From Chara braunii (Eukaryota; Plantae; Charophyceae): a DNA stretch of 64,000 nt. Where the stretch lies: assembly GCA_003427395.1 (NCBI GenBank), contig BFEA01000037.1, positions 4,610,666 to 4,674,665 of the forward strand, in the 5' to 3' direction. Below, in pieces: positions 10,924 through 62,158 of the stretch. The stretch's first letter is position 1, and every line of letters starts with the position of its first letter. The notes beneath the pieces are model-generated. The model was not told the DNA's origin and did not search any database. It was given only the letters and a program-made list of their open reading frames with translations. The translations under genes were made by a program, and so were the position numbers.

Positions 10924-10992
<69 letters not shown>
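10924..10992. repeat. (CT)n microsatellite within LTR (also 29788-29865)
   Basis: Present at the same position in both LTRs. Confidence 0.95.
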
Positions 10993-10997
<5 letters not shown>

Positions 10998-11052
10998 ACC
11001 GCCTCGCTCCCTCAGTCTCTCTGCTGGGCCGAGCTGGCCTCTGGGCTGTCCT

Positions 11053-11647: not shown

Positions 11648-11683
11648 CGACTAATCAATAACCAGTAACTCGCTCCCCTTTTC

Positions 11684-11691
11684 TTTTTATA
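11684..11691 (-). promoter_or_regulatory. Putative LTR TATA box
   Basis: cctataaaaagaaaag on the minus strand; same in the 5' LTR (30577-30584); tctatgaaaaaaagggg at the equivalent site of element 2. Confidence 0.5.
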
Positions 11692-12258
11692 GGACCGCTA
11701 CTCACCACGATCCCCGCGTTCTAAACGAAGACTTCAAGTAATTCTCCTTTTTAATCCTTCACATCAATAATTCATAGTTTTGAAAAGAAATATTAAGATA
11801 AAATAAATCCAAATAATTTGAGAAAAATAGAAGATCGAAACCCAAGGATCGGAGCACGAACTGAACTCCCTACGCTACTATCAATCACCGATCCTCGTGA
11901 TGTGACCACAGGTTGAAAGCATGGTCCCATAACGGGATACAGATGGGCACACCCTTCTCTTCAAAACACGCCGTCGGTCTATTCCTATTGGGTGACCGTG
12001 TTCGATGGTACGGAGGGGGCTTATGACCTTCCACGAGAAGTGATAAGCCTCCTACCGATGCGGCCACAGGTTGCCCCTCTTTTGGGGTCTTATTGGGCGA
12101 CACTCAGCCAAATAGGTCAGCCACAGTGAAAAGCGAAGGGTCGGGCCAATTTGGGTCATCGGACGACAATCACAGTCCGAAATTGAACCGTTAGTTTCGC
12201 CACGAAGTGACAGAAAGCCGAAAGAGGGAGCCGCGTCTGACGAATCAGCTAATAAGAA

Positions 12259-12318
<60 letters not shown>
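12259..12318. repeat. (TAA)n microsatellite in LTR
   Basis: Directly visible; target of the hAT-like insertion in the 5' LTR copy. Confidence 0.95.
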
Positions 12319-12320
<2 letters not shown>

Positions 12321-12876
12321 TAAGAAAAGTTAGGAAATTTTAACACCACAGTGACCTGAAGCTGCTGGATCTTCCCGAACTAAGGCGAAGGTTCAAATCT
12401 AAGCACAGATCTGACGCTTGACTTTCTTTTCACGTTTTTTTTTCTTTTCTTTCTTTTGCCTTGCTTAGTCCTCTTCTGCTTGATAGTGATAACAACCTCA
12501 TTCATCTAACCCATAACCTGGTTAGAGGGCACTCTGCGCGCAGTAGAAAAGACCGCGCCTGTCCCTCTACCTTTGCGTCCCTTGGCGAGCCCAACGGCTA
12601 CCACGGCCACAGGCCGGTAGTGCTCTGTTGTACAGCAGGGCACCGAGTCTGCGTGGACCAATGGAAAGTCCTGTAGTGCAACTACTTTTTGCCATTGGTA
12701 GCGCCGACTGGACCGATTCCGCAACCGTGCACAACCCGACTGACCATGGTACGCCGTGAGCATGGTAGTGGGAATTCCTAGGTGGACAATCCGATACCAC
12801 ACCTACAGGACTCTGAACACCTCTGGGCAGGGAGTCAGGTACGCAGCGGAGGGCCAGGATACCGCGCCCTACGACA

Positions 12877-15699: not shown

Positions 15700-18600
15700 T
15701 GTTGTGTCTCTCGGTCTCACTATACTCCTCTCATTTTTCTGAAGCAGTTCTTTTACCGGATGGTTGAATTTTCCCCCCTTCTTTACAATCATTGTAAGGA
15801 CCAGGTCAGGGTCTCTGAAGATGAACTTACAAAGTCTTGACCCTGATACTATATCATGAACTCTTGAACCATCTATCTCTGATATCTAATAAACTTTATC
15901 TTCTGCTTCGCCTGTAATTCTGTAGGGACCGAACTATCTGGATTCCAATCGTTTAGTCCACCGGGTCTCAAAGGAATTGTCAAATAGGAGGACAACGTCA
16001 CCAACCTTCAATTTCTCTTTTCTTATATATCTCTTTTTGTTTCATCTCTCTTGATCTGATAGTCAGCTAATTGCCATTCTCTCTGCAACATCCATTACTG
16101 TCTGGTCAACCTCTGATATCTGCCTCATTCTGATCTGAAGAAGTTCTGAGATAGAGTACTATCTATCACTCTCTTGACCTAACAATGTTTTAATTATACT
16201 CTCAATAGGGAGAGTGACATACCGTTCATACTACAAAGTGAATGGAGCATAATCTGTGGTTCTCTTGATAGTGATGTTGTAAGCATAAACTGCAGCTTTG
16301 AGTACTTTCGGCCAATTACTGAGGTTTCCTTCACAACATTTAGCCAATGAATCTTTCAGCGTTTTGTGACCTCTCTCGACAGGTATGTTTGCTTGAGGAT
16401 GATAGGTGGTTACATTTTGAATTATAACACCCAGTCTGAGAGTGGTTCTTCTTACGATCTTATTCCTGAATTCAGATCCTCTGTCTGAAACAAACTCTCT
16501 GATAAAGGGGTATCTGAGATAAACTTCCTTTATTTAGTCAGTCACTTGCTCGGTTGTCTTCCTCTTCAGAGTCTTTGCCTCAACATATCCTGAAAAATTA
16601 TCTTTCATGTTCAATATGTATCTCATACCACCCTTGCCTAGGGGCATGGTGGTGAGGTCCAAGTGGACTCGATTGTCTGGCTCTACTAGGATAGTGGGAA
16701 ATAAAGGTTCGATCATCCTATTTGTAAGACCTCTTCTGACACAACACACAAAACCAGAAATCGAGTTTAACGGTCTTAGAGAAGGTTGCTACAACAACCC
16801 TATGACCACCAATAACCCCTCGTGTAAAATAACAATTATTTCGAGTCGTCTTTCTTTTCCACAAACCACCCTTAATGGAGGCACCCCTCCATTGCCATCC
16901 ACAAAGAGGTGACATCTCTTAATCCTGAACTTTTTCCTTGAATTTTTGCAGTAATATTCCTTTAATCATTCTTTTTCCATCTTCTTCTTCTCTTGATAAA
17001 TCTCATCATATTCTTCAAAGATGAATGATATCTCTTCCTCTTTCTTCTCACCCTCTTCTTTATTTTTTGAACCGGAGTTTTTTCTGGTTCATGAGCAGCC
17101 ACAACAAACATTTTGTTTTTCCTCTTCTTCATTTTCAATGATTAATTCATAGACATAAGCATCAAAGATTTCTCTTCAACTGTCTCTCTTTTCAGGTCAT
17201 AGGGTCCATTTATAGGAACTAAGAACCCTATAGTCTTCATCATCGTCCTCATTCCTGAAATTATCAATATAGGCAGATTCTTCAATTGACCCATCAACAT
17301 TCTCTTCTTCTTCTTTCCTCCATTTAATTCTGCTTAAACTATCCGCCCGATTATTTTCAGTAGGGATATTTTCCAGTTTAAAATCAAAAGTTCAGATAAA
17401 GGCAATCCACCAACTTACTATTGGATCTACTTGTTGATGCTTTTTAATAGCACCTATCACAACAGATGCATCAGTTCTCATGATGAACCTCCTCCCGAGT
17501 ACATAGTGCCTGAAGCACCTGAGACAATGGTTGATTGCTAGTCACTCTTTTCTAAACTGGTGTAGTCTCTTTCTGTAGAGTTAAGAGTTCTACTCTTAAA
17601 TCTCAGGGGTCTCTCTTTTTCATTCCCATCTTTTTGAATAAGCACACCACTAAGAGTTACTGGTCCCCCATCTGCCTCGATGATGAAGGGTCTCCTCTCC
17701 TCATCATCGTAAAAAGGCACTCCCAACACTACACCTTCATTTTTAATTTTTCTTGTAGAGTTTCTGCAACAATGTGTCTTTTCTTAGTGCAAGATAAGTC
17801 AACCCATTGTCTCACAATCTCTCTTAGAGGTTCTACAAGGGTAGCAAAATGAGAAATGAAAATCCTTCAGAACCCACAGACACCCAAGAAGCTTCTGACG
17901 TCTGTCACTCGTTTGAGAGGCAAAAGTCAGTTCAAAATTATATCTATCTTCTTGGGGTCAGGGCTCCTACCATTGGAGAAGCATCTAAAGCCAAAGATGG
18001 TTACCTCTGCTTGAAAGAGGAGGGACTTTGGCGCACTGGCAGTCAGATTGTATTTCAGAAGTCTCTTTAAGACCAGCTTTACTCCTTCAGCATATTCTCA
18101 GACGAACTTTCTGACTTCATCAGCGACCAAAGTCTCATCTCTTATTATGAGTCTTTTCACAGGATTATCATCAATACAAGGATTGATTATCTCATGAGAG
18201 ATGTCCTGTATGACTTGGATCATATCCCTTTGAACCACTGTCACGCCATTGGTCCAACCTTGAGGTACCACGCACATCAATGAGCCCTCTTGGCGTGTGC
18301 ATGACGGTCATCGGTCGGTTGGTGGGATCAATGAGAAACTGATTATAGCCAGAATACAAATAAACTAAAGAATAAATGCATCGACCAGCAAAGGATTCAA
18401 AAAGGAGATCAGCATTAGGAAGGCTACCTGCATCACGTATCGTTATTGAATTGAGCTTCTGAAGTTTTTGTATCCATCTTAATCCAACCCCTGATTTCCA
18501 AAAACAAAACCCGTAATTAGAGACAATCTTCTTATCAAGACACTTCACCACCTCTGCCTCTTCCTTCTGGGATACTTGGTTGGTCTATCATTCCATGAAA

Positions 18601-19650
18601 TATGTTCAACTGTCCAAATTTTTGTCATCTTAATCATATTCACGTCCAACCGCCCGCTCACCTCATCATTAAAGGAGAAACCAGAGAACTCTTGACACAT
18701 CTTGAATATATATTATTTCTCTTTAGACAAGATTAACTGATTTGAACCTATCTTCATCGTGTCAAACCTTTCTCTGGTGACTCTACTACTCAATTTTGCA
18801 GATTTTCTTAATACTTAATAATGCTCATTTCTTTCTCCAGTGCTTCATCATAATCATTTTCAATTAGGACTGCCACCGGGTTCTTTTTTACCCCATTGGG
18901 TTTGTATTTTTTATTTGACCCAGTGACTATTTTCTTAAAAAATGATGAGTTGATGCAAATTTTAATTTCATTTTTTCACTCTTAGCAGTTTTAACAGCCT
19001 TCTTAAATGCTTCAATCTGTCCATTTTCATCTTTGAGCTTGCCAAAACTTTCATCATCTTTGAAATCTGATTAATATCAACTGAGACTTCCTCCTTTGAC
19101 TCTTGCTTGTCTTTTTCTTTTATCTTCATAATCTTCTCAATAAATTTTTCCGTTCTGATTGAGTTAGCTGATACCTTATACTTATAACGATGAGAAGGGC
19201 ATACCATAAATGTATGTTTCTGTGCAGTCTCTGGATCTTGCAAACCAATCCAGGACGACCCTTCATGATTGAAGAACTGGACAACTTTCATCCTGTGCAA
19301 AAACGAAGTGTCCATAATACAATCATGGTCTAGATATGGTACCACAAATCCTAACAGTTCGACTGAAATCATCTTAACCTTGATGGGCAAATTGTCAATG
19401 AATCCAACCACAAAGAGTTTTTCAGCAATATTACTTAGTATTTGCTTCGTGGGCCTATCAATGGTCACGTTGCGGACTTCCATTGCCTTCTAAGAGATAA
19501 GTATCATTTCCGCCCAAGAGTCCGCTAAGGCTCGGATTTTTACATGATTAATGTAGATAGTTAAATACCCACATCCCATGGTTGCGAATTTCATCTTACA
19601 TTAAGGTAAGGTCCTGTTGACTTGGTTGGGGAAGACTGGTCCCAGGTAAT
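15700..19650 (-). pseudogene. pol: Element 1 pol (PR-RT-RNaseH-INT), many stops/frameshifts
   Basis: PR ALADSWAEM (~19510-19535); RT VPQGWTNG and NPCIDDNPVK; RH FIIEADGGP...RPLRFKSRTLNSTERDY; INT RVHLDLTTMPLGKGG, FVSDRGSEF, GPY-like C-terminus; HHCC region partly deleted near 16745-16770. Confidence 0.93.
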
Positions 19651-21343
19651 TAACTTACATCCTTTTTTTTTCAATTAACTTCTTGAGTTCCTCTCTCAAC
19701 TTTGGTGCTAACGTCATTGCCTCTTTGAAAGACAAAGTCAGTTTTGTTTCTTCTAACATTTTTGTAATTGCATCTGTACTTGCAGTTTCATCTTCCAACT
19801 CACTCTTGATGATACATTTTTTCTTTTTCCCTTGCTCACTCTTTTTAGATTATGGGTGTAGTTCTTGATCATCAAGAATGTCAATTAGAGTCTCTTCGGT
19901 CTTTTTTATCTTCCTTTCCTCTATCATTTGTGGCGTAAAGCGTGCTTGAAGATTTCTCACTTCTCCAAACATTGAACTGGGTTCCATGATGAGTTTCGGT
20001 GGTAGATCACCCTCAAAAGACATCATGTTGGCCGAACAGACGGGCTCGCTAGGAGAAAATGTCACCAACTCAGAAGAAATCCGAGAAGCAGAACTCTCCC
20101 CTAACGATAGTCCACTTGAAAAAACCTCACCAGACATGTCTTCCATTAAAGTTAGAGCCGTAGAGACGATTCAATCAATGAAAGAGGGTCATCGTTTTTT
20201 TGCATAAGTTCTTCAGACAATTCACCAACGAGGAAGTGAACACTCACATTGACATTTCTCTTCTTTTTTTTCTTCATCCTTTCTTCATGTTTAAGGGCAA
20301 AAAGTCTCATACCTCCAGGATGCCTGGGATCCAGTTCGTTCTATGAACTATCACAGACATGACTCATTGCATCCTTCTTAGCCACCCCACTTTTCACATC
20401 CTCTTCCAGAGGTTTACAGTAGGTGGTAGTATGACCTCCTTCACCACAGTAGTAACAGATAAAACTTTTTCTTGGACGATCATCATACTTTCTTCTCTCT
20501 CTGTTTTCTTTTCCACCATTCCTTCTATTCTTTCAAGATCTGGAGGAATCCCCTCTCTTACCATAGTCACCATCATCGTCATTATCTTCCTCATCTTCAC
20601 ATTCTGTTTTTCTTCTTCCCTTTTTCGTCCACAGCATGATTAACAAACATATAATTGACCATAACCCGTTGAATAATTTTCTCAGCATTCAAATTGTTCC
20701 CTCTGTTCATACCATTTTCGGTTTCCCAGTTTTTAGCCAGTGTACTGATCTGATTTAGTGACCACTTCTTGTGTGAGACTGTAGGCAGAGTTCTGACTAT
20801 TGTAACAATTTCATCCTACATGAGAGGGTAGTGCTGAGTTTGATTGTAAAATTAGTTAGAAAAATATGACATCTCTGAGCCTCATCCAAATATGGGATTC
20901 TCCTGGCTATTCGGATGAAAGTTTAGAGGAAGACATTGAAGGTTTCATACTTAGCTCTTATGATGTTGAGAAGATCCTTTGTGGTAGTTGAAACCGAGTC
21001 TTTCTCAAATTCTCTTTTGATTCTCTCTTTGACTTCTTCCTATGTTGTAGCCTCTTCCATCAACTCTTGAACAACCAACCTCGAGTCAGTATCACAATAA
21101 GATAGAAGGCGCTTGCTGTTTGTCTGTCCATCCATAACTGAACCCAAATAATTCATACTCATCCAGGAAATCATTTACTTGAGGTCCTCTTAAGCATGAA
21201 ATCCTCCCATCCGGTCTCTTTGCTCTCGCAATATCTGACCCTCCTTTTATTGTGTTAACTCTCTGGACCAGCTCTTGTATAACACTGATTAGGGTTTCTT
21301 CATGGGTCCCCGCGGAAGAGCTAGGTCTCCCTCGTCCAACCAT
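19650..21343 (-). pseudogene. gag: Element 1 gag
   Basis: MVGRGRP...QVNDFLDEYELFGFSYGWTDKQ capsid-like N-terminus; CYYCGEGGHTTTYC zinc knuckle at ~20415-20460. Confidence 0.85.
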
Positions 21344-21584
21344 TTTGACTATAAACTTCCCCGATACTTTCTTATCTTTCTTCTGTCACTTTTGTCTTCT
21401 CCTCTCTTATTTTTCAATCTCTTACTCTTCATGCAAGGAATGCAGGTTCGTTTATCTCTTTTCTTGTTTGCTTTACCCCTTGCGAGTTTTGTACGTAGAG
21501 AGTGTAGGCAATAATAGACCGAGTAGTGATCAAAGGCAACGCAATCCTTCTCAGCCTTCCGATGTAATCCTCAATCAGTTCTTT

Positions 21585-21875
21585 CTAATCATCGCTGTTA
21601 ATTCTTATGGCAAGAGAAACTCGTTCTCTGGAGGAGTGATATGAAACTCTCTCAATGATTCCCACTTTCACCACATTTAGTAAATAGTTGATCTCAATCT
21701 GGTCAGTGACGATTCTCAAGGCAGAGTCTCCCATCTTATCAAAGAAAGGTTGCAGAAACTCAAACTCATCCAAAGTAGAGAGACTCATGTCTGAGATCCG
21801 AAGAATCCATTCTATCTTGACTATCTCTACTTCCAATACAACCCCAAACGTTAACTATTCAACGGAACCAGACAT
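21585..21875 (-). pseudogene. Leader accessory ORF D (96 aa, unknown)
   Basis: MSGSVE*LTFGVVLEVEIVK...RINSDD; same length as the intact orthologue at 62159-62449. Confidence 0.7.
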
Positions 21876-21896
21876 TATTGATCACTATGGACAGTT

Positions 21897-22386
21897 TCAG
21901 GAGAGGTAGATCTCTCGAAGAGTGTAGTCTGAGATCTCAAACTGGTGCTTAAAACTATTTAAAAGTAAGAACTTCATCACCACCAAAAAATCACTCTCTT
22001 TTGTGTTACGTATTATGACAACAACTTCTAGGAGAGGTAACCAATCTCTCTTTTCGTCAAAGTCATCAGTAGTTAAGAAGCAAGGGAGTCTCAAATTGCC
22101 TTATTCCTTCTCCCAAAGTTACTTTTCCCCGTAAGTTTTCCAACCACTTTTTTGTCTTTATAAGACTAATATAAACTCTCAACCGATATTCCAAATAATC
22201 AACTTTCTTCTCTAGGCATGCTGGAACGTAAATTCTCACAGTCAGGCTGCCGGTGTTCAGAAACTTAACCACTGGAATGTGAAATATTATTTGTCCTCTT
22301 GCACATGTCTCATACCTCAGAATTGCAAACGGAGTCACCTCATAAAGTCTACCTCTCACAACAGTTATCCTTGTTGTTAAGAGCAT
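21897..22386 (-). pseudogene. Leader accessory ORF C (paralogue family), one frameshift
   Basis: MLLTTR...FAILRYE...SLTVRIYVP...RDWLPLLEVV...EIYLS*; ATG overlaps the ORF B stop (TAATG); intact orthologue at 62471-62971. Confidence 0.75.
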
Positions 22387-22868
22387 TATTTTTTAGCCCT
22401 CTTCACCTTATATACAAAATCTATCATGACTGACCAATTGTCCCTTGAAAACTTAAGTCCTTCAACATCTGAAAATGGTATCCCAGTGAAAGGTCTAACA
22501 TAGGTATTCCAAAAGAAGTTCTCCCCTTCTTATTCAAGTCTTCTTCTTTCGTCATGCACAATATATGACGCTCGTTGCTAATATCGACCACTTCTACACT
22601 CTTCGAACCTATGTCGTGGCACGTAGATCTCAACGTCAAACTCATCAAGGTCAATAAAATAGGAAGTAAGGACATACATATCATCAAGTTCTCATCCTAG
22701 GTTCTTTAGTGCCTCATACCTCATAATCTCGTAGGGAATAACAACTCTCATTGTTATAGAATTAAGAGAATTGAGCAGTTTATCAGAATCCTCCTTACTC
22801 AGCCTCCTATACCCTCTTCCCAGCCTAAACCAGGGTCTCACTTTTGGAGGTACGTATGGTTGACTCAT
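22386..22868 (-). pseudogene. Leader accessory ORF B (160 aa, paralogue family), in-frame stops
   Basis: MSQPYVPPKVRPWFRLGRGYRRLSKEDSDKLLNSLNSITMRVVIPYEIMRYE...FDVEIYVP...RDNWSVMIDFVYKVKRAKK*; 483 nt; ATG overlaps the ORF A stop (ATGA); orthologue at 63708-64000. Confidence 0.75.
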
Positions 22869-23344
22869 TTGCGTCTTTGGTCTCTTCTCACTTTCAGTGC
22901 AAACTCAATCACAGCAGACCAGTTGTTTCTCGACAAAATATTAGGTAAAGGAGGAGCTGGGAATCCCTTAAAGGGGGCAAACCTAGTAGATCCAATGAAG
23001 TACTTATTTTCTCTCTCAAGTCTCTCTTTCTCTTTCAGTACAACTTCCTCGGCAAATCTCCAACATCTTTCATACACACCGTCAATACTTCTTTCTTTAG
23101 GAATATAAATTCTTACATCATATGTGTTCAAGTCTGTAAAGTAGAATGTCAGAAAATAGAATCATTCTTGCTCTCATCCACTCTCGACCATCTCATACTT
23201 GACGATCTTGTATAAGAATTTCTTACTTAAAGCATTTAGTGATCTCAGGAGACACTCAACGTTTTCCTTGCTTGGACCTGAAGCTTTGCCAAATTTCAGT
23301 CTTCTCTGTCTGGTTTCCTCTGCGGAAGTTTCTCTTGCTCTCAT
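22865..23344 (-). pseudogene. Leader accessory ORF A (159 aa, paralogue family), in-frame stops
   Basis: MRARETSAEE...SKENVECLLRSLNALSKKFLYKIVKYE...YDVRIYIPKE...RCWRFAEEVVLKEKERLER...RNNWSAVIEF...RRK*; 480 nt. Confidence 0.72.
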
Positions 23345-23363
23345 GTCAGCCTTCTCATTTTTT

Positions 23364-23747
23364 TCATCTCATTACCATGTTAATTATTGACAACCAATTA
23401 CTTCCGTTACCGTAGTTCTCAGAAATAAGAGAAATTGAAATTGTCTCACAGGTTACAGGCATTAACCCTCATTCCACTCTCTTCTTCCGCCTGATAAGGT
23501 CTGTCTTTTCATCGTAGATAGACTGAACAACAATTTCGCATAGTCAGTTGAAGGTCTCACCATCATTGCAATCTCCTTTCTTGACACAAGGACGAATATC
23601 ATAGATATCTCCTCCTAAGAAGCGAGTCAACACTACACAGATGGTCGAACTGCCAGAGTGGTAAACCTAAAAGTGCTCATACTGATAGAGGAATACCCCT
23701 TTAATAGTTAATTTTGAAAGTTCTTTCAATGAATCAGTAGTTAGCAT
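23364..23747 (-). pseudogene. Leader accessory ORF Z (more diverged paralogue), in-frame stops
   Basis: MLTTDSLKELSKLTIKGVFLYQYE...RFLGGDIYDIRPCV...SIYDEKTDLIRR...SNWLSIINMVMR*; 384 nt, same motif order as A/B/C. Confidence 0.55.
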
Positions 23748-24070
23748 TATTGATGGAGTCTCTAAGCTTCTGACTCATTCTCTTCTTTTTCAGTTTTTCA
23801 AGGGCATCAAGGGATCATAAGACATACCTGTGATCAAGCTTGATCCTCTACAATAAGTAATGTCAGTCTCCTCCTCTGGTTCAGTGTCGTACCTCACACA
23901 TGAAGAGATGAGACCCAGTTAGCAACTGAGAATTTCCAAGAGAATGATGTCTCAATCAAAATAATAGAGTCGGTCTGAAAATCGAGAGATTGTGAACAGT
24001 TCTCAAACCCTAATCAACGCTTATAGTTGATGCTGACCCAGGCTCGTTCCGGACACGAAACATTTTCATG

Positions 24071-24088
24071 TCTCCGACAACGGTGTCA
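24071..24088 (-). other. Primer-binding site complementary to the tRNA-Asp 3' end
   Basis: Minus strand TGACACCGTTGTCGGAGA, 4 nt after the LTR end, vs canonical Asp PBS TGGCGCCGTTGCCGGGGA (4 transition mismatches). Confidence 0.8.
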
Positions 24089-27000
24089 TTTTTGTCGCAT
24101 TTTTTCTAGTCATACCACTTCTGGCGACCAGAAAGCTAGCAGACTGTCACGCAGGATTTTGTATGTTTTTACAATAAATAAATAAATTAAATAAAGCAAA
24201 TCCCTTCCTGTTGTGTGCGGCCGACTTCGAGCAAGACCCTTCAATTGCGGTCTTCGCCGGACCCCGGTCTTAGGAATCTTTGATTATGATTCGGAACAAC
24301 AATGATGATGCAAAAAATAGAATTAAAATTAAATATGTCATGTATGTATCAAGTTTGCCAATTTAGAGGTTGAGAAATGTGACATGAACAACAAAGAACA
24401 CAATCATGAAGCAATGCCAGAAAAGATCATAAAGACTGACTGACTCAAGGCAAGACAAGATGAATGAGGGAAAAAATGAGAACTCATAATAATCTCAAAA
24501 AGTACAAATGAACAGACATGGACAACGCTCTTCAAGAGTCCTCACTCATCCCTCTAGGGTCTCATACTCAATCTCTCACTTGACGTGCGTATCTTGTGCT
24601 TTGAATCATGTCTATGCATTCTCTGAGATTGTGGTCTCGAGATATAGAGTCACCTGAAGCCTGCGAGTTTCGAACACTTCCACCCTAACATGATACGAAA
24701 CTCAACCATAGCACGTAAATCCTCCCACAGTGTAGGAAGATAGGGCCTAGAGAAAATCCCTCGTCTGAGATATTGGAACTTTGAAGGCGCCGTCACTACC
24801 TCATAAATTCATAATTGATTTCTGCTGGTGAGATGTACCTACCTCTTTACCGAGTCAACCAGATGACCTCAGCAAGAGTCATCTGTGAGTAGGAAAGGAA
24901 CTGGCGACTTGGGATAATCAACATAGAGCTTGGGTACAAAGTTGCGGATCAGCTTCGTTCCACTCACATTAAGCTCTCTCTCTCTCCTCTCAAGATACCT
25001 TGTTGCCAAGATCCAGACTGAGTCGAAGTACTCATGAGTCTCTTTGCCTTCTTTACGTTGAGTTTCAGATCACGAATGATACCTTCTGCAAAACTGGTGT
25101 GAACAACGAAGATTGACAGATCTCCCTATCTGAAACAGAAGGCACTGAGGTACTGATACGGGAAAAAATCTTTGAAGACGATGCGGTTGAGGTTGGTCAA
25201 GATTGACTCATTGACTGGAAACGACTGAACTGTACTCATGTGAGTGATAATTGTTGCTGCATTCTGATGGTCTATTTAATTAACCTGACCGTCCCAATGA
25301 GTTGATCGTGTTAATTGCTTACTGCTTGAATTCTGATAGTTTACCGTGTATCTAATTATGATCAGTTTCCTATCTGGTTCTTAACGATAAGATGTAGTTT
25401 GCCCTGATGATACTTCACTCTCCTTCCCTAGCCTGTCTTTGTCGAATGTTTGCAGGTTCCTCTTGAAGTGAGTGACCAGATCATTTCACTATTCACCATT
25501 AATAACACTTCTTGCATGATCGATAGGTCCTACGGTTGAGAGGGTGTTGTATAGTTTCCCATCTGATCCATGATTGTAGGAGGTGTACTCAACAAGTTTA
25601 TGGTCTTTCAAACGTCTGTTCCATCGTGAGCTTTGTATGATAATGGATGTCTTGGACCACAATTGCTTCCCAGCCTTCGGTCTTATCTCGGTGCAAGGTG
25701 CAGGTCACTCTCAACGTGCCCTCACTTCCAATCTCTCTACAAAGACCCATTGCATTGAGAATGATTGGACTATGCTCATGAGTTGATATGATTGCTGACG
25801 GACTTCGTTGGTCTCCCTAGCTCAATTTGTTGTATCAATGTAGTGGACGCGTTGATTGTTCCTACCGCTCCGTTTCCGGTAGTGCAACATGTGCTTGTCT
25901 ATCTTGTCTCTCAGGACTAGCGTGTGTTCCTTTCTCACTGAGTTTTTGAAGTCTGTAGTAACCCTTCTCAACGTCTTCTCACTTGTCTGATTGTTCTCTC
26001 TGCAACCAAATTCCTTATTAACATGTGGTGTCATTGGGCATAGGTCTGGTTGAGGTGCTTCATAAGAATTTAAGATCGATACGAGATGTCAAGAGCACTG
26101 CCCCCTTCTCAGAACAAGGCAAACGTGATAAGTGCAGCTAATAGTAATGACAGGTGGATACTGAGAGAGTTATCGTTTGGGACTCTTCATATCAAAGCAC
26201 TTACGTAAGTTTTGTTGGATGTTGAATCATTTGTAAAAGGCACAGAGAGTCGCATAGTGTATCTTTTGTTTACAGGCCGTGAGATCTGCAAATTACAGTC
26301 TTAGGCAGATGAGATAAAGTAGCAACAAGGAAGAATACAACACTTGGACGCCGACACCTCCCTTAATAGCGTCATCGGGCTTTTCGGCCTGAGTCTTCGT
26401 TAAGGCATTTGATCCAAGACTTGCTAACTCCACCTGTTTGATCCAGATGCCACTTCCAAGTAGTCTGTCCACAGGGTCATCCTAAGATAAGTTTAGCGTA
26501 GGCATGGCTTAGGGTCGTTCGCTAGAGAGACGTCATCCGGAGCATCTCGGGCAATCTTAGTTGATCGTGGTGTTACAGTGAGTTTGGCCAGTGATCGGTT
26601 ATGAGTCACAGTACGGAGTAAACTCAGGCTAGGCACCGCACCATTTGCTGCATGCTTCTTTTGTTGTTTTTTCGTCCTTTTTTTTTACTATACAGCTTAC
26701 GGTATGGGGTCATCTCTAATCGGATGAAAAAGCATGGATAATCGGCATACAGTCCAATTAATGGAGCATACTGCGACTTGCCAACATAAGCCTTCCTTAT
26801 GTACTACACTGATAACAATCGTTCAACGTTTCTTTTCGTATACTGTCTAGGGGTTGTGTTAGAAATGTTTATCGCGTGCGCATGGCAAGCGTCATTGATC
26901 ATTGAGAACAACTCTGTGATGCAAGGGGGGGTCTCCATGTTTATGAGGCGCCGAGCACTACAATCAAGCCCTCTTTCTTCATACGTCTTAGGGTGCTGTT

Positions 27001-29785
27001 GAAGACAGACCCCACGGACAAACAACAATAGAAGCTACTCTAATCATGATATGAATGGCTCTAGCAGTACAAAGCATGGTCAATTTCAGTCCTCGTACAA
27101 CATTTCTTAATTGGTTCAACAGATTGCAAAATGAGGAATTAATCAACCAGGATGGAGCAGTCAGTCTTGAAAGAGAAATGTTGAGGACTACTCTTATGCT
27201 TAGTCCCAGTACAAGACTTAAATTAGAACACAGTCGTCCCGGCTACCACATGAAAATCCTCTGAGAACTGTGCTTTCGGTCACTGTACCGATACGTTGTT
27301 ACTCACTTACTACGCTTAGTTTTTGGTTTTCTTTGCTTTCCTGTTATTACTTGTGCGCACTTGTCATTTAAGTGTCGTTTAAGGCAAACACATTTCAAAA
27401 TAACAGATGGTCTATCAATCACTATCAAGCAGGTACTTGGCCAGGAGATAAGCAACTCTTCTTAACACGAACTTCCTCTTGCTCACCACTTGCAAGTGAG
27501 TGGACGGGATCAGTTTACCCCTATCTCAGGGTAGGTCAGGGCCACTCAGTTTCGTCCCACTCAATTAGATAGTTGGAGCTTCGACGAGAGCACCCGCAGT
27601 TTGGGAATGCGCTCAAGCTCGCCAATCTCATTAAGCGGGCTGTGTTTGGTGACATCGCATTGATTGCCTTTGCAACGAGAGATACAAGGAAGCGAATGAA
27701 GATGAGCAATGGTAACAGTGAGTAGATTTATAGAATAAGGAGGATGATGCAAAAGAAAACCAAGAAAATAAAAAAAACAGAGGTGCGAGAAGACTTTCAA
27801 ATGAATTGATCAGAGACTTTATCTTTGATTAAGCTCCCCCTTTTATTTGATCACTATTACCATTCATTATTCGAACTCAAACACTCCATCTGCTTTCAGC
27901 ACTCGGTTCACCATCTTCGTAATACGTTCACTGATGAGCTTATCTATACCTACGGATGCGGATGGTCGTTCACACGAGGATAGTCATATCGCCCTTGTCA
28001 TACTCCTAGAAAGTCGGTGTAACTGCAATCTGATAGTTCACGATTAAGGTTCTGGAAGCCAGCATAGTTAGACTAGAGTCGCACTTGGATAATAGAATTG
28101 ATGCAGCAATAAGCGACTAAAACGCGTTTCTTGATTAACTATGATGAATACTCCTCGGTCAGCTGCAAGAACGACTCCAAACAGACACTCAAGTATTGCA
28201 GTCTCATGAGCTTAGAGACTTCCTAACTGACAATGGGGATTAACCAGATCTCGGCAAAGAGTCGTGACAGGACAGATGAAAGCGCACCAAAGACAAACCA
28301 CTGGAATAGGCGACGTGAAGCCAAGGCGATCGCCCTTCAAGGTCAGTGCAGAACAACGCCAATCCGCTTCAACGATCTCTTACTTTGGACTAACCTGACT
28401 ACTTTTCTTATTTGTCAGCGTTCAGATATTCTGTGCACATACGCATCACTCTCTTCCGACACTACCTTCCCTCTTACTGGCGTCGCTCTTGTCCATATTA
28501 GCCCTCTAGTTCTTTCGTGCACACCACAAGCTCACGCATGCATCCTCCCTCTCTTTGCCTCACACCTATTTTCAATATTGGTGATAATTAACACTGGGTC
28601 ACACCAATCATACATTGACGGTATTGGAACGACTATAATGACTGGAACGGGTTCTCGCACAAGTGTATATAAGCTGACTACACCTAGGAAGAGACATGAA
28701 GCGACAATCGACGTATATAACTTTTCCTCATGACGTCAAGAAGAATGAGCGTTTCCCATATTATGTTCGATCTCCCTTCGCACACTTATTCCTTCCTCTC
28801 AAGATATACACGTATCACGAGCACTGTCTTATGCAAGTAGAAAAGAAGTAGATAAACAACTTCGTGATGATAAAGGGAAAGATATACCGATGAACGACGA
28901 TTGAATCAACTGCACGCCTTCGCAAGTCTCAGCGTAACTCATCTCCGCTATAGGTAGGCAGGACGACCAGCTAAGACGAAGAATCAACATCAATAGGAGT
29001 GGCCCCCCGTGAGTGAAGTGACGAGTTGTAGCATATTAATCAAACGTGTCAATCGCATCAATCAGTTCCTATCCTCACGCCACTTGCGCACTCATCACCT
29101 CTACGAGTGGATCAGAAAGTCATTCCGGCCTGACTGTTGATGATGACAAGAAAAGAGGGAATACCCGCCTCTCCCTTTATGGCTCAACTTCCTTCTCCCT
29201 CACGAGAACCATTCACCCACCGCATTCATGTTGTTTTGGGTCTCTCATGCTTCCACGTTGTAACTGTCATGTAGTCCCTAGGCCAAGGCACGAGAGTCAC
29301 GAGACCAATTAATGCGAGATAAAGTCTGCTCGCTGTACCATCCAAGTGGAATTATCGCTACATCAACCGAGAGGGCACGCATCTACTCTCCCTCTCTCCG
29401 AATAGTCGTTCGCTCTTCTTGACGAGGGAAAAGTCGTGTTTTCGTCACCGAAAAGCGTCGTGCACGTCTTCTCCCCTCATGAGCAGGACGAGGGTAAAAT
29501 GTGACAGGGCGGGGCATTTACTGCTGGATATCAGCCACTTCTCATGACGACAAGAACGCATATGTGATGCATGTCGCCCTTCGTCCTCGCATGTAACTCC
29601 TCGTGCTCTCGTTTACTACCACCTCTACGTCAACGATGGAGTAGGGTACCGCGTTTTTGGAGATCGCTGCCCCGACTCCAAGCGAAACTGACTCCGACGA
29701 AATACCCAGTATCTCCCTCACAAACGAGAGTTGACTCCCTCTTCGTGCATCGCTCCATCACGCGCAGCCCTGCCGTGTATCGCGC

Positions 29786-29869
<84 letters not shown>

Positions 29870-29935
29870 GCCGACCCGTAACCGCCTCGCTGCCCCAGTC
29901 TCTCTGTAGGGCCAAGTTGGCCTCTGGGCTGTCCT

Positions 29936-30540
29936 CTACCGACTCGGCTGGCGGGTGCTCTCTCCTCCACTGCTCCAGCCCGTGCTAGGACCGAGTCTGC
30001 GCATCGCTGGCCTCGGACTCAGCCTCCGAGTCTCGGTCCATCTCCTACTGCTCTCTCTCTCGGTTGTGCTCGTGGAATTCTCTTCCTCGTGGTAAGTGAC
30101 CATAACCTTCAGGGCCGCGGTCACTCCATCCCTCTTGCACCTCCGCTCAACTCGATTGCAAACCTAAGTAACCACGCCCTGGGGTCCTAGACTTTCTCGT
30201 CTTCCCTCATCTCTCGCTCTTTTTCCCCGTAGACATTAATCCTTAGTCTAGCCTTCCCATCACCTTTACTGTAGTTGAGACAGGCGTCCATCGTAGCTCC
30301 CTCTTCATGCATAGGTTCCCAGCTCCAGTAAAACCTCAAATGGTCTGGAATATAACAAAAAGGCCATTGGTTCGCGCCATAGCCAGGTTTCGCACAACGC
30401 CAGTCTGCCAACCTCGAACAGCACACCACACTACACTCCACTTGTGCCCGAGCTTCCAGTGCAAACGGGTTACCACTAAGCAGGTTAGCCGTGGGCAGTA
30501 TCCCGACTCTCGGAAAGTGAGGGGCGTGTCTGGCTCTCAT
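29936..30540 (-). pseudogene. ORF-L1 copy in the 5' LTR, disrupted near 30180
   Basis: MRARHAPHFPRV...LRFYWSWEPMHEEG...EMREDEKV* then ...LKVMVTYHEE in another frame. Confidence 0.65.
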
Positions 30541-31160
30541 CGACTAATCAATAACCAATAACTCGCTCCCATTTTCTTTTTATAGGATCGCTGCTCACCA
30601 TGATCCCCACGTTCTAAACGAAGACTTCAAGTAATTCCCCTTTTTAATTCTTCACATTAATAATTCAGTGTTCTGAAAATAAACAATAAGATAAATAAAT
30701 CCAAATAATTTGAGAAAAATGAAAGACAGAAACCCAAGGGTCGGAGCACGAACTGAACCCCCTACGCTACTGTCAATCACCGATCCTCGTCATGTGACTA
30801 CAAGTCGAAAGCATAGACCCATAATGGGATACTGACGGACGCACCCTTCTCTTCAAAACACGTCGTCGGTCTATTCCTATTGGGTGCCCGTATCCGATGG
30901 TAAGGAGGGGGCTTATGACCTTTTGCGGGGGGTGATAAGCCTCCTAATGATGCGGCCACGAGTCGCCCCTCTTTTGGGGTCTTACTGGGCGATACTCAAC
31001 CGAACAGGTCAGCCACAGTGAAAAGCAAAGGGTCGGGCCAGTTTGGGCCATCGGACAACAATCACAGTCCGAAATTGAGCCGTTAGCTTCCCCGCGAAGC
31101 GACAGAAAACCGAAAGAGGAAGCTGGGTCTGACGAATAAGCTAATAATAATAATAATAAT

Positions 31161-32883
31161 CAGGGTTACCAGCCCGTACGTACAGAGGTCCTGGGCAGAC
31201 CTCCGTACGTACGGGCGTTCGGGGTCCTGTACGGGGTCCGAACCCGACGGCGTTTGGCCCCCGCCAAAAATTATTTCGGGGCCTAAAAATATGTTTTTTT
31301 TCTGAAGTTTTTTTGTGAGTTCTCTATGACGTGAGGTACACGACTATAAATTTTCAAGGCATTTGGCTCAGCCAAACAAGAATTAAAAATTGCCAAAGAT
31401 GGCGGTGTCAAAACGTGCTTGCCCACATTTTTTTTCACTTTTTACTTTTTGTTTTCACTTTAGTTCGGCATCTAAACAATTTTATTATTTTTTAAAACTT
31501 TTTAAGAGTGTTTCGCATTATGTGAAGAACACTTATCTAAATTTTCAGGGCATTTAGCTATTTCAAAAAAAAATGAAAAATCGCCAAAGATGGCGGTGTT
31601 GAAAACATGCTCGTGCACTCACTAAATTTAATTCTCTTTTTATTTTTTGTTATTTTCTGTGTACGGATCCGGGCCGCCCGGCCGACCAGCGCCTGCCCGG
31701 GGGAGGTCCCAGGCGGCCTGGCCGGGCGGGCAGCCCGGTTGGGGGCCGGGCACCCCCAGCACACCTTGTTGGGGGGGGGTTCCGACCCCGAAACGCCAAG
31801 TTCTGGCCTCCCTAGAGCCTACCGGGTCCGACCAGGCCCAAAAAACGGCGCGTCGGGCCCGTGAGGCCAATTGTTTTTTTTGAATTTGTGACGGCCCTCC
31901 GGCCGTCGATCATCCATGATAGATGGCCAGAGGGCCGTTTGTTTTTTGGAGGGAAAATCAAGGCCCCGTTTGAACAACCGACTGGCTGGGGCGGCCTGTA
32001 TCGGCTGTCCAAACGGGGCCCCTTCTCTAGCTGCCTGTGTTCGTGGTTCAGCCGCCCTCGCTCCTCGCACTGCCCGTTGTCGCCATCGCCTGGGAGCTGC
32101 ACTCCCCCGTCGTCGTGGAGTCGCCCGTCGCCCGTCGCCAGCGTCGTGGANNNNNNNNNNNNNNNNNNNNNNNNNNNNNNNNNNNNNNNNNNNNNNNNNN
32201 NNNNNNNNNNNNNNNNNNNNNNNNNNNNNNNNNNNNNNNNNNNNNNNNNNNNNNNNNNNNNNNNNNNNNNNNNNNNNNNNNNNNNNNNNNNNNNNNNNNN
32301 NNNNNNNNNNNNNNNNNNNNNNNNNNNNNNNNNNNNNNNNNNNNNNNNNNNNNNNNNNNNNNNNNNNNNNNNNNNNNNNNNNNNNNNNNNNNNNNNNNNN
32401 NNNNNNNNNNNNNNNNNNNNNNNNNNNNNNNNNNNNNNNNNNNNNNNNNNNNNNNNNNNNNNNNNNNNNNNNNNNNNNNNNNNNNNNNNNNNNNNNNNNN
32501 NNNNNNNNNNNNNNNNNNNNNNNNNNNNNNNNNNNNNNNNNNNNNNNNNNNNNNNNNNNNNNNNNNNNNNNNNNNNNNNNNNNNNNNNNNNNNNNNNNNN
32601 NNNNNNNNNNNNNNNNNNNNNNNNNNNNNNNNNNNNNNNNNNNNNNNNNNNNNNNNNNNNNNNNNNNNNNNNNNNNNNNNNNNNNNNNNNNNNNNNNNNN
32701 NNNNNNNNNNNNNNNNNNNNNNNNNNNNNNNNNNNNNNNNNNNNNNNNNNNNNNNNNNNNNNNNNTTTTTTTTTTTTTTTTTTTTTTTTTTTTTGGTCCG
32801 CCTTCGGCATGAACGGCCGAACGCATCCCCAAGGGGTCCCATACATTCGGGCGTTCGGCCCGTCCCAAACGCCGGTTACCCTG
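31161..32883. mobile_element. Non-autonomous hAT-like DNA transposon nested in the 5' LTR (spans an assembly gap)
   Basis: TIR CAGGGTTACCAGC / GCCGGTTACCCTG; 8-bp TSD ATAATAAT within (TAA)n; absent from the 3' LTR; subterminal hairpin 31173-31215; internal repeat at ~31347 and ~31538. Confidence 0.85.
32151..32765. other. Assembly gap
   Basis: N run. Confidence 1.
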
Positions 32884-35800
32884 ATAATAATAATAATAAT
32901 AAAAATAGGGAAAGTAAGGGAATTATAACACCACAGTGACATGAAGCCACTGGATTATTTTTTTGTTCAGATTTGCGCACAGATCTAACGCTTGACTTTC
33001 TTTTCACCTTTTTTTTTTCTTTTTTTCTTTTGCCTTACTTAGTCCTTTTCTGCTTGACAGTGACAGCAGCCCCATTCATCTAACCCATAACCTGGCTAGG
33101 GGGCACTCGGCGCGCAGTAGAAAATACCTCGCCGGTCCCTCTATCTTCACGTCCCTAGGCGAGCCCGACGGCTACCACGGCCACAGATCGGTAGTGCTCT
33201 GTTCCCCGAGTCTGTGTGGACCAATGGAAAGTCCAGTGGTGCACCTACCCTTTTGCCATTGGTAGCGCCGCCTGGACCAGTTCTGCAATCGTGCACAACC
33301 CGACTGACCCTGGTACGTCGTGAGCATGGTAGTGGGAATTCCCAGGTGGACAATCCGATACCACACCTGCAGGACTCTGAGCACCTCTGGGCATGGAGTC
33401 AGGTGCGCAGCTGAGGATCAGAAAACCGCGCCCTCCGACACCGTGCACGCCAGCCGTACCTCTCGCAGCTCCCTGCGACAGTACAGAGAACCCGCGTGGT
33501 ACAAGTCACCTCTACCCGAAGGATTGTCACCACCCTTAGGTAGGTGTATCTCTGTTGAACTAGTGAATCATGTGCGAAAGTTTTTATTTGTAATCACAAA
33601 GATAAGTTCGCCAAGGGTGTTTGCTCGATCGTTGTACCATAGGTATACGCGTGGTAGAATGCCTAAGACTGACCCGTATATGTGTCTAGCATCGGGGCGT
33701 TGATCTCCTGGACTGACTTACAATTCAGGTCGACTTTCTTAGTAGTTGCCCATGCTCAAAATTTGCTTGAATACAAATGTTTTACCATCTCAGTTATCCT
33801 TATAAAGGTTAAATCTCATAATCGATTCCTTTGGAATAAATTCCGGAACCACTAATCTTGATGTCTAGCTACCCTCCTTCTTACCAGGACCACTGTGAAT
33901 CAGTATGATATGTGATTCATCTTAGTATATCAATCAAAGTATAGTCTATATGTATCAAGGGGGGGTATGATGAGTGGTGGACCTCACTTCTCACAATTGC
34001 GGCGGACGAGTCTGAATTTTCCAGATGACACTCTCTTCCGATAAAAACAAGTTATAACCCACATCTGCATCAATGCAAGAAATCAGATACGCACACACAA
34101 ATGCAGACAAAGAATGCACTACATGCGTAAACTTCAACCCGTTAAAGACTTGTCCCTCACTCCCCGAAACCTTGGACAAACACCATTCCAACCTCTGACA
34201 CTTTCTAGTAGCCTCCTTACTAGAATCAAAGTATTTTGATAGTGACCAAGACCATTCAAGTGTGGGTATCATTCCATGCGGAAGTTGAGTCGTAGTTCCT
34301 ACCGACCTATTATCCAATGATAATAAAATTGTAGTTCCTTATGGATCCTTCCGTAATTTTTTTTAGGAATGATGAAAACCTGTAGATACAACACAGTCCA
34401 AAACAAACTTAACATCCCTTTTTTCATACAATGATTTAGAAAATTTATCCTAGACAGTGTAACTTCAAGATTGTAACTATCGATAACTTCCGTTTTGCTT
34501 CTACTTTTAGCTAGTTGCAAGGTTGTCGCCTCACAGTTCGGGTGATGGACAATAGTTCAGTCTACATTCATTCGACTCGGTAAGCTTAGATAACGGTTTT
34601 AAGATAGTGATTAACCTTTGGTGACCATCAACCTCAATCTTTCTCTCTTGACTTCCCTCGCTTAGTCCCTTTCTTCCTTATTCTCTTATAATTGATACGT
34701 TTTCTCTTCTTATACGTCTTTCCCCTTTTGACATGTGCAAACAAACATCAACAATCCATCTTAGAATATAATTATAGGATAAACATCAGTTAGAGGTTTT
34801 AAGATAGTAGAACTTGGTCACACAGGACTACATTCTACCACCCTTACCTTAATAGAATAAAAAAATTATTTGTCAATAATTGATTAACCTTTGGTGAGGC
34901 TTTATATTTTCCCCAATCATCAAGAGGATTAGTGATGATAGGACAGATCACTCTGGATGCATTTTCTGTGGCGCTACCCAAGTTGATAGGCGATCAGAAA
35001 GACCTCATGGGGTCGTGCTCCACCCATCATCGTTACTTGGCGCCTGTTGGTGATAGGGCATACCTCGCAGGGCCTCGTTTTTCCTATAACCGACTTATAT
35101 TGAAGTAAGGTTGACCGGTAATAAGGATGACCTCATCGGGTCTTGCTTCCTCTTACTATCACCTTCCTCCTCATAGAAATAGGCAATAGGGCAGGCCTCA
35201 CGGGGCCTATCACCGTCACAATCTCCTTTGATGAACTGAATCATCTTACTTCAAATTTCTCATCTCTGAAGTAAGGGTACTTTCATATCCTATATCATTC
35301 GGAAGTCTTTAGGTCAGGTGAGTAGGCCATACGAGATTTATACCCCATGATTGACGTGACCCACAACAAGGTAGTTCACACAGAAACTTCCTCCTTATTG
35401 TACACCTTAAAGATCCTCAGACTAATCTTTGACCCATGTTAGTTTAAATTTAAGAAGACGCAAGTGTTAGTCAGGTATATGGCAAGGAACAGGTTAGTCA
35501 ACGCTTTTCACAATCACAATATTCTAGCCAGTATTAAAGAATCTCAACAATTATAGTTGTAAACAATCCCACAATTCATCCGAACTCACCATGAACTTAT
35601 TTTATCCATGTCAGGGTAGTCCATTAAGTAAGGCAAAACTTCACGCAGTCTATTCCCTTGCTGCCACATTTCCTCGCAAATAAAAATGCACATAGCGAAA
35701 CAGTTCACGTGGGAACTTCTCGTTCTCACTATTTTTTTCAAAAATAATTAATCATATACAATCCATATCCAAATTTATTCTCCAACAACCAATTTTCTTT

Positions 35801-61816: not shown

Positions 61817-62158
61817 TTTGACCATAAACTTTCTATGATACTCTCTTATCTCTCTTCCTGTCACTTTTGTCTTCCCCTTTCTCATTTTTCAATCTCTTAC
61901 TCTTCTTGCAAGAGATACAGGTTCGTTTCTCTCTTCCCTTGTTTGCTTTACCGCTTGAGAGTTTTTGACATAGAGAGTGTAGGCAATAATAGACTAAGTG
62001 GTGATAAAAGGCAACGCAATTTTTCTCAGTCTTCCAGTATAATCTTCAATCAATTCTTTTTCATCATTCCCACTCAATCTTTTGTTATTCCCTTTCACAA
62101 TACCCCGGATCATAAAGTATCGTGTCAAATCTATGATCTCATAGTCAAATTGCATTGC

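What the first reader, a model, noticed from the sequence alone, without database searches (positions are those of the whole stretch)
21585..23747. Operon-like array of small accessory genes with ATGA/TAATG stop-start overlaps upstream of gag
Seen: reading through transition-type stops, the ~2.7-kb leader between PBS and gag is tiled by at least five separate ORFs: Z (23747-23364), A (23344-22865), B (22868-22386), C (22386-21897) and D (21875-21585). A/B overlap as aaATGA (22865-22868) and B/C as TAATG (22384-22388). Z/A and C/D are ~20 nt apart. The C stop (EIYLS*) and the taATG start of D are identical in the diverged element 2, where C and D are still open, so this boundary predates decay. 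Established: stop-start overlaps mediate termination-reinitiation in influenza B BM2, caliciviruses, victoriviruses and the SART1 retrotransposon, whereas Ogre/Tat gypsy elements typically carry a single extra 5' ORF. Inference: this is a polycistronic, translationally coupled gene cassette in a eukaryotic LTR retrotransposon. It is the best candidate for an undescribed system in this window.
Basis: partly seen in the sequence, partly recalled or inferred. Interest (0 to 1): 0.9.

Follow-up and report, generated by a model that had tools for sequence, protein, structure and literature searches.

The report
Retrotransposon leader packed with duplicated genes
A giant Ty3/gypsy retrotransposon, likely from a stonewort alga, carries ahead of gag a tightly packed row of small genes, four of them diverged copies of one protein of no known family, which are likely read one after another from a single RNA.

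Summary
They lie in a ~29-kb decayed Ty3/gypsy element with ~8.6-kb LTRs, likely from Chara (nearest named homolog 70% identical to ORF A). Z, A, B and C are tandem paralogs of one soluble ~130-160-aa domain without a known family; a fifth, broken paralog (Y) sits inside both LTRs. D is unrelated. Its quoted end (21585) follows a 99-nt deletion in this copy; element 2 shows a further in-frame ORF E. B-E evolved under purifying selection (dN/dS 0.32; integrase 0.25; non-coding control 0.55-0.65). The A/B overlap also appears in a divergent copy. The B/C TAATG is copy-specific: its AUG differs in about 98% of family contig depth. The leader has no AUG depletion, consistent TURBS motif, junction hairpin or shared splice acceptor, and there is no usable RNA evidence. 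Serial reinitiation is my best guess (~0.45), not shown. Small ORFs ahead of gag are known (Drosophila MDG1: two); a six-gene, paralog-built cassette was not found in ten paper searches. New variant of a known kind.

The parts
24093..33440 (-). 5' LTR of element 1 (starts TG at 33440, ends CA at 24093; interrupted by an insertion with an N gap at ~31160-32884)
   Evidence: 88% identical to 4250-12876; ends; depth jump and loose ends at 24092-24093
24845..25239 (-). ORF Y: fifth, frameshifted paralog of the Z/A/B/C domain inside the 5' LTR
   Evidence: profile hits 25209-24907 (iE 2e-6) and 25051-24845 (iE 0.027)
4986..5368 (-). ORF Y copy in the 3' LTR (frameshifted)
   Evidence: profile hit 5243-4986, iE 3.7e-9; BLASTP to external homolog P0011, 34% over 80 aa, E 1.5e-15
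24070..24090 (-). probable primer-binding site just after the LTR end (tRNA identity not tested; its likeness to Athila/Tat-type sites is recalled)
   Evidence: sequence after the LTR end
23364..23747 (-). ORF Z, 127 codons, paralog 1, three premature stops
   Evidence: 79 bits on a profile of external homologs only, shuffles at most 5.5; 35% identical to P0014 over 124 aa
23341..23367 (-). 8-codon mini ORF that overlaps Z's stop and A's start, each as ATGA (seen in one copy only)
22865..23344 (-). ORF A, 159 codons, paralog 2, two premature stops
   Evidence: 110 bits on external profile; 70% identical over 77 aa to part of Chara braunii CBR_g46266
22865..22868 (-). A/B stop-start overlap (ATGA)
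   Evidence: sequence; AUG and overlapping stop also present in 9 reads of a divergent copy (table 7)
22386..22868 (-). ORF B, 160 codons, paralog 3, three premature stops
   Evidence: 97 bits on external profile; dN/dS 0.29 vs element 2
22384..22388 (-). B/C junction; TAATG in this copy only
   Evidence: 22384 differs in about 98% of laid depth in two DNA runs
21897..22386 (-). ORF C, ~163 codons, paralog 4 with a C-terminal extension; frameshifted in element 1
   Evidence: element-2 copy 47 bits on external profile; dN/dS 0.41 and 0.38 for the two parts
21594..21875 (-). ORF D, ~95 codons, unrelated to Z/A/B/C
   Evidence: -2 bits on external profile; dN/dS 0.24
21414..21593 (-). remnant of ORF E, joined to D by a 99-nt deletion in element 1
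   Evidence: alignment with element 2; dN/dS 0.22; terminal stop shared with element 2
15800..21343 (-). decayed gag-pol: gag, CCHC knuckle, protease, RT, RNase H, integrase
   Evidence: RT_RNaseH and rve in element 1; Retrotrans_gag, aspartyl protease, RVT_1, RT_RNaseH, Integrase_H2C2 in the aligned element 2
4250..12876 (-). 3' LTR of element 1
63709..63999 (-). element 2: part of ORF B, open
   Evidence: 75% identical to B
62471..62975 (-). element 2: ORF C, open; its 5' junction is interrupted by other sequence
62159..62449 (-). element 2: ORF D, open
61889..62155 (-). element 2: ORF E, 88 codons, one premature stop, starts 3 nt after D's stop in the same frame

Best explanation
This large Ty3/gypsy family carries between its primer-binding site and gag a cassette of five or six small genes under purifying selection, four of them tandem paralogs of one orphan domain, and they are likely translated as separate proteins by ribosomes that stop at one ORF and restart at the next on the same RNA. 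Shown: the ORFs, their paralogy, a fifth broken paralog in the LTR, selection on B-E, and junctions of -4 to +21 nt. Inferred: the cassette grew by repeated duplication of one ~140-codon gene and was kept because the proteins act on the host or on the element's own cycle (counter-defence or trafficking; function untested). Inferred: restart is not TURBS-driven and would need another tether or a trans-activator as in caulimoviruses. Gag itself may be made from a different, shorter RNA. I put the cassette's reality at about 0.9 and serial reinitiation at about 0.45.
For: Paralogy: a profile of 7 external homologs only scores A 110, B 97, Z 79 and C (element 2) 47 bits; the best of 200 shuffles each is under 10. 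Selection: pooled B+C+D+E, 407 codons, dN/dS 0.32 (0.24-0.42), integrase 0.25 (0.17-0.36), non-coding control 0.55-0.65; off-frame shifts of the same DNA give higher values in every ORF. Three premature stops (codons at 23164, 22579, 21431) differ in 92-99% of family depth. Separate cistrons: three in-frame stops between C and D in both elements; external homologs are stand-alone proteins of 121-164 aa, P0010 and P0017 matching A/B over their whole length. Against leaky scanning: 59 AUGs in the 2749-nt leader vs 55.8 +/- 6.9 expected. Against one spliced RNA per ORF: no acceptor-like AG within 30 nt of the A, B or C starts, and those at D and E are not shared by both elements. An A/B overlap persists in a divergent copy with a different codon upstream.
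Against: The B/C AUG is copy-specific, and where C starts in other copies is not known. Family-wide conservation of the other junction bases could not be read: one search showed 40 of 790 variant rows. The A/B support rests on 9 reads of one run. No UGGGA lies within 40-87 nt of A/B or B/C (one at -99 before C). No stable structure flanks the cassette junctions: 13 of 14 windows have z above -2, the exception lying before gag in element 2. Tight junctions can be a by-product of duplication, and one overlap has a 14% chance rate. The D/E stop is seen in one copy only, so D and E may be one gene. RNA: 5 reads in X5 and 373 in X6, only 1 of the 378 at least 95% alike to this copy; X6 depth is on both strands and tracks DNA depth (Spearman 0.77), as DNA carry-over would. 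Paralogy does not imply shared function.
Confidence: 0.45

Rival explanations
1. The genes are real but each is translated from its own subgenomic RNA (alternative splicing from a leader donor, internal promoters or alternative polyadenylation), as in complex retroviruses; the tight spacing is a relic of tandem duplication.
For: A leader of 59 AUGs plus kilobases of LTR cannot be scanned to gag, so some RNA processing is probably needed anyway. MDG1 elements make a short transcript ending after sORF1 (bioRxiv 10.1101/2025.03.14.642691, passages). No TURBS or junction hairpin was found.
Against: No acceptor-like AG within 30 nt of the A, B or C starts, and the upstream 40 nt are purine-rich. 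None of the 15 joints shown of 184 had RNA support, on very thin RNA data.
Confidence: 0.27
2. Some junctions are recoding sites: the ribosome frameshifts or reads through, giving fusion proteins (B-C by a -1 shift on the A-rich run at B's stop, D-E by readthrough or as one gene) rather than separate products.
For: C is under selection yet lacks its AUG in about 98% of family depth; B ends on an A run; D and E are in frame with a stop seen in one copy, and element 1's deletion joins them in frame.
Against: C and D are parted by three conserved in-frame stops; external homologs are single-domain stand-alone proteins, although searched only 44-282 aa; no canonical slippery heptamer or downstream structure at B/C.
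Confidence: 0.18
3. The cassette is a passenger: captured or duplicated DNA that is no longer, or never was, expressed by the element, and the ORF pattern is a fossil.
For: Both copies in the window are decayed; Y is frameshifted in both LTRs; no convincing transcript.
Against: dN/dS of B-E between two lineages is close to that of integrase and below the non-coding baseline; intact homologs exist in other samples.
Confidence: 0.07

Closest known systems
Drosophila MDG1-group Ty3/gypsy elements (412, mdg1, Stalker, blood) with sORF1 and sORF2
   Same: Small selected ORFs upstream of gag on an unspliced full-length RNA (bioRxiv 10.1101/2025.03.14.642691, passages).
   Different: Two unrelated ORFs of ~110 and ~70 aa there; five or six here, four of them paralogs. 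sORF2 has a membrane segment; none of these proteins does (best 19-residue hydropathy 1.48).
Plant OTA elements (Ogre, Tat, Athila, Retand) with extra ORFs
   Same: Very large elements with long LTRs, long internal regions and extra ORFs (PMC6317226, passages).
   Different: That survey counted only ORFs of 250 codons or more and reached 24.1 kb and ~5-kb LTRs; this element is ~29 kb with ~8.6-kb LTRs and ORFs of 88-163 codons that such a filter misses. No plant mobile, Transposase_28 or Athila ORF-1 domain. Its protease region resembles fungal and streptophyte DUF4100-linked clusters instead.
Caulimovirus (CaMV) polycistronic pregenomic RNA
   Same: A reverse-transcribing element of the green lineage with consecutive small ORFs ahead of the capsid gene, joined by overlaps or a few nucleotides, with no TURBS (PMC5902531, passages).
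   Different: CaMV needs its TAV transactivator; no such protein was identified here. CaMV's ORFs are not described there as tandem paralogs.
TURBS-type termination-reinitiation (caliciviruses, influenza B BM2) and SART1
   Same: AUGA or UAAUG overlaps between consecutive ORFs (PMC5972666, PMC5902531, passages).
   Different: Those are two-cistron cases with an upstream UGGGA element or a downstream hairpin; neither is found consistently here.
Hapavirus P-M intergenic proteins U1-U3 (rhabdoviruses)
   Same: A tandem row of small, highly diverged paralogous accessory genes of unknown function (PMC4334499, passages).
   Different: Negative-strand RNA viruses, unrelated in sequence; an analogy of architecture only.

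Membership tests
Ty3/gypsy LTR retrotransposon | Two direct LTRs with TG...CA ends | tested here: met
   88% identical pair 33440-24093 and 12876-4250
Ty3/gypsy LTR retrotransposon | Domain order gag, protease, RT, RNase H, integrase | tested here: met
   Pfam hits in this order across the two aligned elements
Ty3/gypsy LTR retrotransposon | Target-site duplication at the element's ends | tested here: not met
   the 4-5 nt flanks differ; the insertion may be recombined or decayed; this bears on the copy, not the family
Ty3/gypsy LTR retrotransposon | tRNA primer-binding site after the 5' LTR | tested here: inconclusive
   a PBS-like stretch is in place; no host tRNA set to pair it with
Ogre/Tat lineage | Archaeal-type RNase H in pol | tested here: inconclusive
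   no such Pfam hit in the pol pieces scanned; not every frame of the decayed pol was scanned
Ogre/Tat lineage | RT-RH-INT phylogeny within OTA | not tested
   no reference set at hand; one search points to DUF4100-linked clusters
MDG1 sORF cassette | sORF2-like protein with membrane segment and polybasic tail | tested here: not met
   no 19-residue window above 1.48 in 11 proteins
TURBS-dependent termination-reinitiation | Stop and start overlapping or adjacent, conserved | tested here: inconclusive
   A/B kept in one divergent copy; B/C AUG copy-specific; C/D 21 nt apart
TURBS-dependent termination-reinitiation | UGGGA motif about 40-87 nt upstream of the junction | tested here: not met
   none before A, B, D or E; one at -99 before C, one at -57 before Y, of 10 starts examined; copies are decayed
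TURBS-dependent termination-reinitiation | Downstream translation depends on termination at the upstream stop | not testable with these tools
   needs reporters or ribosome profiling
SART1-type coupling | Stable hairpin downstream of the overlap | tested here: not met
   z -0.80 after A/B and -1.32 after B/C
Badnavirus/tungrovirus leaky scanning | Upstream ORFs devoid of internal AUGs | tested here: not met
   59 vs 55.8 +/- 6.9 expected in element 1; 22 vs 24.0 +/- 4.6 in element 2
Caulimovirus TAV-activated reinitiation | Element-encoded transactivator | tested here: inconclusive
   no Pfam match for any cassette protein; a non-homologous activator cannot be excluded
Gelsolin/ADF-like actin-binding fold | Structural match well above background | tested here: inconclusive
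   gelsolin-family chains lead both lists but best Z is 5.0 and 5.7 (rmsd 4.2 and 3.7, 72 and 78 aligned), under the tool's background of 7-8; models at pLDDT 60 and 65

The most novel reading that the evidence does not exclude
A eukaryotic LTR retrotransposon runs a true operon: six cistrons translated in series by a TURBS-independent restart relay (including an 8-codon bridge ORF), encoding an expanded family of a new protein fold that the element uses against, or to travel within, its giant-celled algal host.
Probability: 0.25. Interest if true: 0.85.

Novelty: new variant of a known kind. Interest (0 to 1): 0.6.

Why it matters
Accessory genes of plant-lineage LTR retrotransposons are mostly catalogued as single long ORFs; a survey cut-off of 250 codons hides arrays like this one. 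A five-member paralog family under selection in a high-copy element defines a new protein family and points to a host-element conflict in a close algal relative of land plants. If the junctions do couple translation, this would be a natural multi-cistron test case for how eukaryotic ribosomes restart after long ORFs without a TURBS, with use for polycistronic expression in plants.

Tried and rejected
No host genome is held, so copies could not be compared one by one. Single-protein searches of the 5.8-billion set found nothing for B or for the protease region; only profiles found homologs. Scans of metagenome and viral contigs gave nothing real: searches found none, and the one locus (L001) is a short match that I judged chance on reading its sequence. 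Pfam gave no family for Z-E (one weak HTH hit, E 0.023, in 1 of 14 members); PDB sequence searches gave none below E 0.4; ESM Atlas best score 0.83, a lead only; viral fold library none at E 0.001. D does not match the paralog profile. No RNA holder was listed for the stretch, which is no evidence either way. A finer lay over the B/C junction gave no result, so C's family start stays open. A scan for further conserved ORFs in the LTR and the 3' region listed stop-free stretches without a clear third-position bias; not pursued. Rejected: Z-D as one decayed polyprotein (frames differ, C/D stops shared, stand-alone homologs); leaky scanning (AUG count); sORF2/Env-like membrane role (no hydrophobic segment). 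In the tree I left out the 5'-LTR piece of Y; 6 of 12 inner branches are open, so it gives no order of duplication.

Full report
Setting. The finding lies on the minus strand of a decayed LTR retrotransposon (element 1). Self-comparison shows LTRs at 33440-24093 and 12876-4250, about 88% identical and about 8.6 kb long, and a second element (element 2, about 53-64 kb) about 79% identical over the internal region. Pfam hits across the two give gag, aspartyl protease, RT, RNase H, integrase in Ty3/gypsy order. The protease region resembles eukaryotic clusters from fungi and streptophytes, some carrying DUF4100. No host genome is held. Two DNA runs of one study gave 3888 and 3625 contigs on the 3-kb leader, most under 90% alike (2207 and 2093), so the family is abundant and diverse. 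The only named homolog of the cassette is part of Chara braunii CBR_g46266, 70% identical to ORF A over 77 aa; I infer a Chara host from that alone.

Observation. Four corrections follow. C is frameshifted in element 1 only. The AUG of the B/C 'TAATG' is private to this copy: position 22384 differs in 726.8 of 739.8 depth in X1 and 623 of 640.7 in X2. D's quoted end follows a 99-nt deletion; element 2 has a D stop and 3 nt later an in-frame ORF E, whose final stop both elements share, and 10 reads of X6 also carry the segment that element 1 lacks. C and D are in one frame, 21 nt apart, with three stops between them in both elements. Junctions are thus Z/A +19 (with an 8-codon ORF overlapping both ends), A/B -4, B/C overlapping but with the start unresolved, C/D +21, D/E +3 (one copy), E/gag about +70.

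What the genes are. Z, A, B and C are paralogs. A profile search of 1.84 billion representatives gave 6 hits and a second profile search one more; a cluster look-up added one member. Apart from the Chara model these are unnamed proteins of 81-164 aa on contigs of 509-737 nt. A profile built from the 7 unnamed ones alone scores A 110, B 97, Z 79 and element-2 C 47 bits, while 200 shuffles of each stay under 10 and D and E score below 0; without P0014, Z still scores 47.5. A six-frame scan of the window then found a fifth, frameshifted paralog, Y, inside both LTRs (iE 3.7e-9 and 2.1e-6). Different slots have different nearest outside relatives (Z with P0014, 35%; A with the Chara model and P0010; C and Y with P0011), which suggests old duplications, but the tree leaves 6 of 12 inner branches open. 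The domain has no Pfam family, no PDB sequence match, no Atlas match above 0.83 and no membrane segment. Two AlphaFold2 models (pLDDT 60 and 65) agree on three strands, a long helix and a fourth strand; their best structural matches are gelsolin-family domains at Z 5.0 and 5.7, below the tool's background.

Selection. Between the two elements dN/dS is 0.29 (B), 0.41 and 0.38 (C), 0.24 (D), 0.22 (E) and 0.15 (start of gag); shifted frames give higher values. Pooled over 407 codons it is 0.32 (0.24-0.42), integrase 0.25 (0.17-0.36). The method is biased by transitions: a non-coding control gave 0.55, 0.61 and 0.65 (lowest bounds 0.38-0.46), so the margin is real but narrower than against 1. Z and A have no second copy in the window and were not tested this way. 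Three premature stops fall among the 40 variant rows shown of 790, each differing in 92-99% of depth.

How it might be read. Leaky scanning is unlikely: AUGs are not depleted (59 vs 55.8 +/- 6.9), whereas tungro- and badnaviruses rely on AUG-free upstream ORFs (PMC5902531, passages). One spliced RNA per ORF has no sequence support, but the test is weak. For coupling: all cassette junctions are within 21 nt, and 9 reads of a divergent copy keep B's AUG overlapped by a stop in A's frame although the codon before differs. Against: the chance rate of one overlap is 14%; the B/C AUG is private; the UGGGA core that defines TURBS (PMC5972666, passages) is absent from the expected range at A/B and B/C; and no hairpin of the SART1 kind stands out. 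The same review notes that restart can tolerate non-AUG codons, so C may still be coupled; an in-frame AUG close by in other copies or a -1 frameshift are the alternatives, and I could not tell them apart. RNA is uninformative: 5 reads in X5 and 373 in X6 (6% and 12% of those runs read), 1 of 378 at least 95% alike, both strands, depth tracking DNA depth. I therefore hold serial reinitiation at 0.45, separate RNAs at 0.27, recoding fusions at 0.18, passenger DNA at 0.07.

Comparison with what is known. Small leader ORFs in a Ty3/gypsy element are not new: the MDG1 group has two, both translated, on an unspliced RNA (bioRxiv 10.1101/2025.03.14.642691, passages). Plant elements carry extra ORFs, most often between pol and the 3' LTR (PMC7264820, first third of the text; PMC11963269, passages); the largest survey counted only ORFs of at least 250 codons (PMC6317226, passages). 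The best mechanistic analogue is CaMV, where close ORFs ahead of the capsid gene are read by protein-activated reinitiation without a TURBS; the best architectural analogue is the hapavirus row of diverged paralogs (PMC4334499, passages). Ten full-text searches returned no description of this cassette; I saw listings only for most hits. The Chara genome paper is not held; I recall that it mentions unusually large Gypsy elements, and its text or supplements, which I could not see, may bear on novelty. Two earlier notes of this scan describe ATGA-type overlaps before integrase in fungal Ty3/gypsy elements; they are unchecked and I did not test them. Four other look-ups of earlier findings returned nothing.

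Verdict. A real, selected, five- or six-gene accessory cassette built largely by tandem duplication of an orphan gene, in a giant algal retrotransposon family. The headline evidence for translational coupling is halved, and the mechanism remains an inference. New variant of a known kind; interest 0.6, and 0.85 if serial coupling is shown.

Noticed in passing
window 25239-24845 and 5368-4986 (-): A fifth paralog (Y) of the cassette domain lies about 0.75-1.1 kb inside the 3' end of both LTRs, frameshifted in each; its AUG again reads ATGA, and long near-open frames lie upstream of it (to ~26170), so the cassette may extend into the LTR.
   Followed up: partly
window 23341-23367 (-): An 8-codon ORF bridges Z and A, overlapping Z's stop and A's start each by ATGA; one copy only, could be chance or a trace of a frameshifted longer A.
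   Followed up: partly
window 8997-9812: Five to six 136-nt units with internal inverted arms, present in the 3' LTR only; probably a satellite or small-element insertion.
   Followed up: no
window 31160-32884: Insertion in the 5' LTR with a tRNA-Pro-like sequence at 31712-31798 next to an N gap; possibly a tRNA-derived SINE.
   Followed up: no
window 4246 and 33440: No target-site duplication at element 1's ends, and the sequence just past the 3' LTR begins with the same 8 letters as the LTR start.
   Followed up: partly
window 53041 downward: Element 2's 3' LTR matches element 1's only in three patches within the first ~1.3 kb, and no Y paralog was found below it, while the internal regions are ~79% alike.
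   Followed up: partly
window 60621-60907: Element 2 has a tandem duplication of the CCHC knuckle region (two 140-nt copies, 96% alike).
   Followed up: no
window 62975-63710: Element 2's B/C junction is interrupted by unrelated sequence with a long homopolymer run and an N gap, likely a poly(A)-tailed insertion.
   Followed up: no
P0012 residues 204-286: The Chara braunii gene model CBR_g46266 joins an ORF-A-like stretch to unrelated retroelement pieces: an annotation chimera that hides this family.
   Followed up: partly
models m84b7eb2e8c7c and mfda94b455a71: Both models rank gelsolin/villin domains first (Z up to 5.7, below background); worth an actin-binding test given the host's likely identity, but not evidence.
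   Followed up: partly
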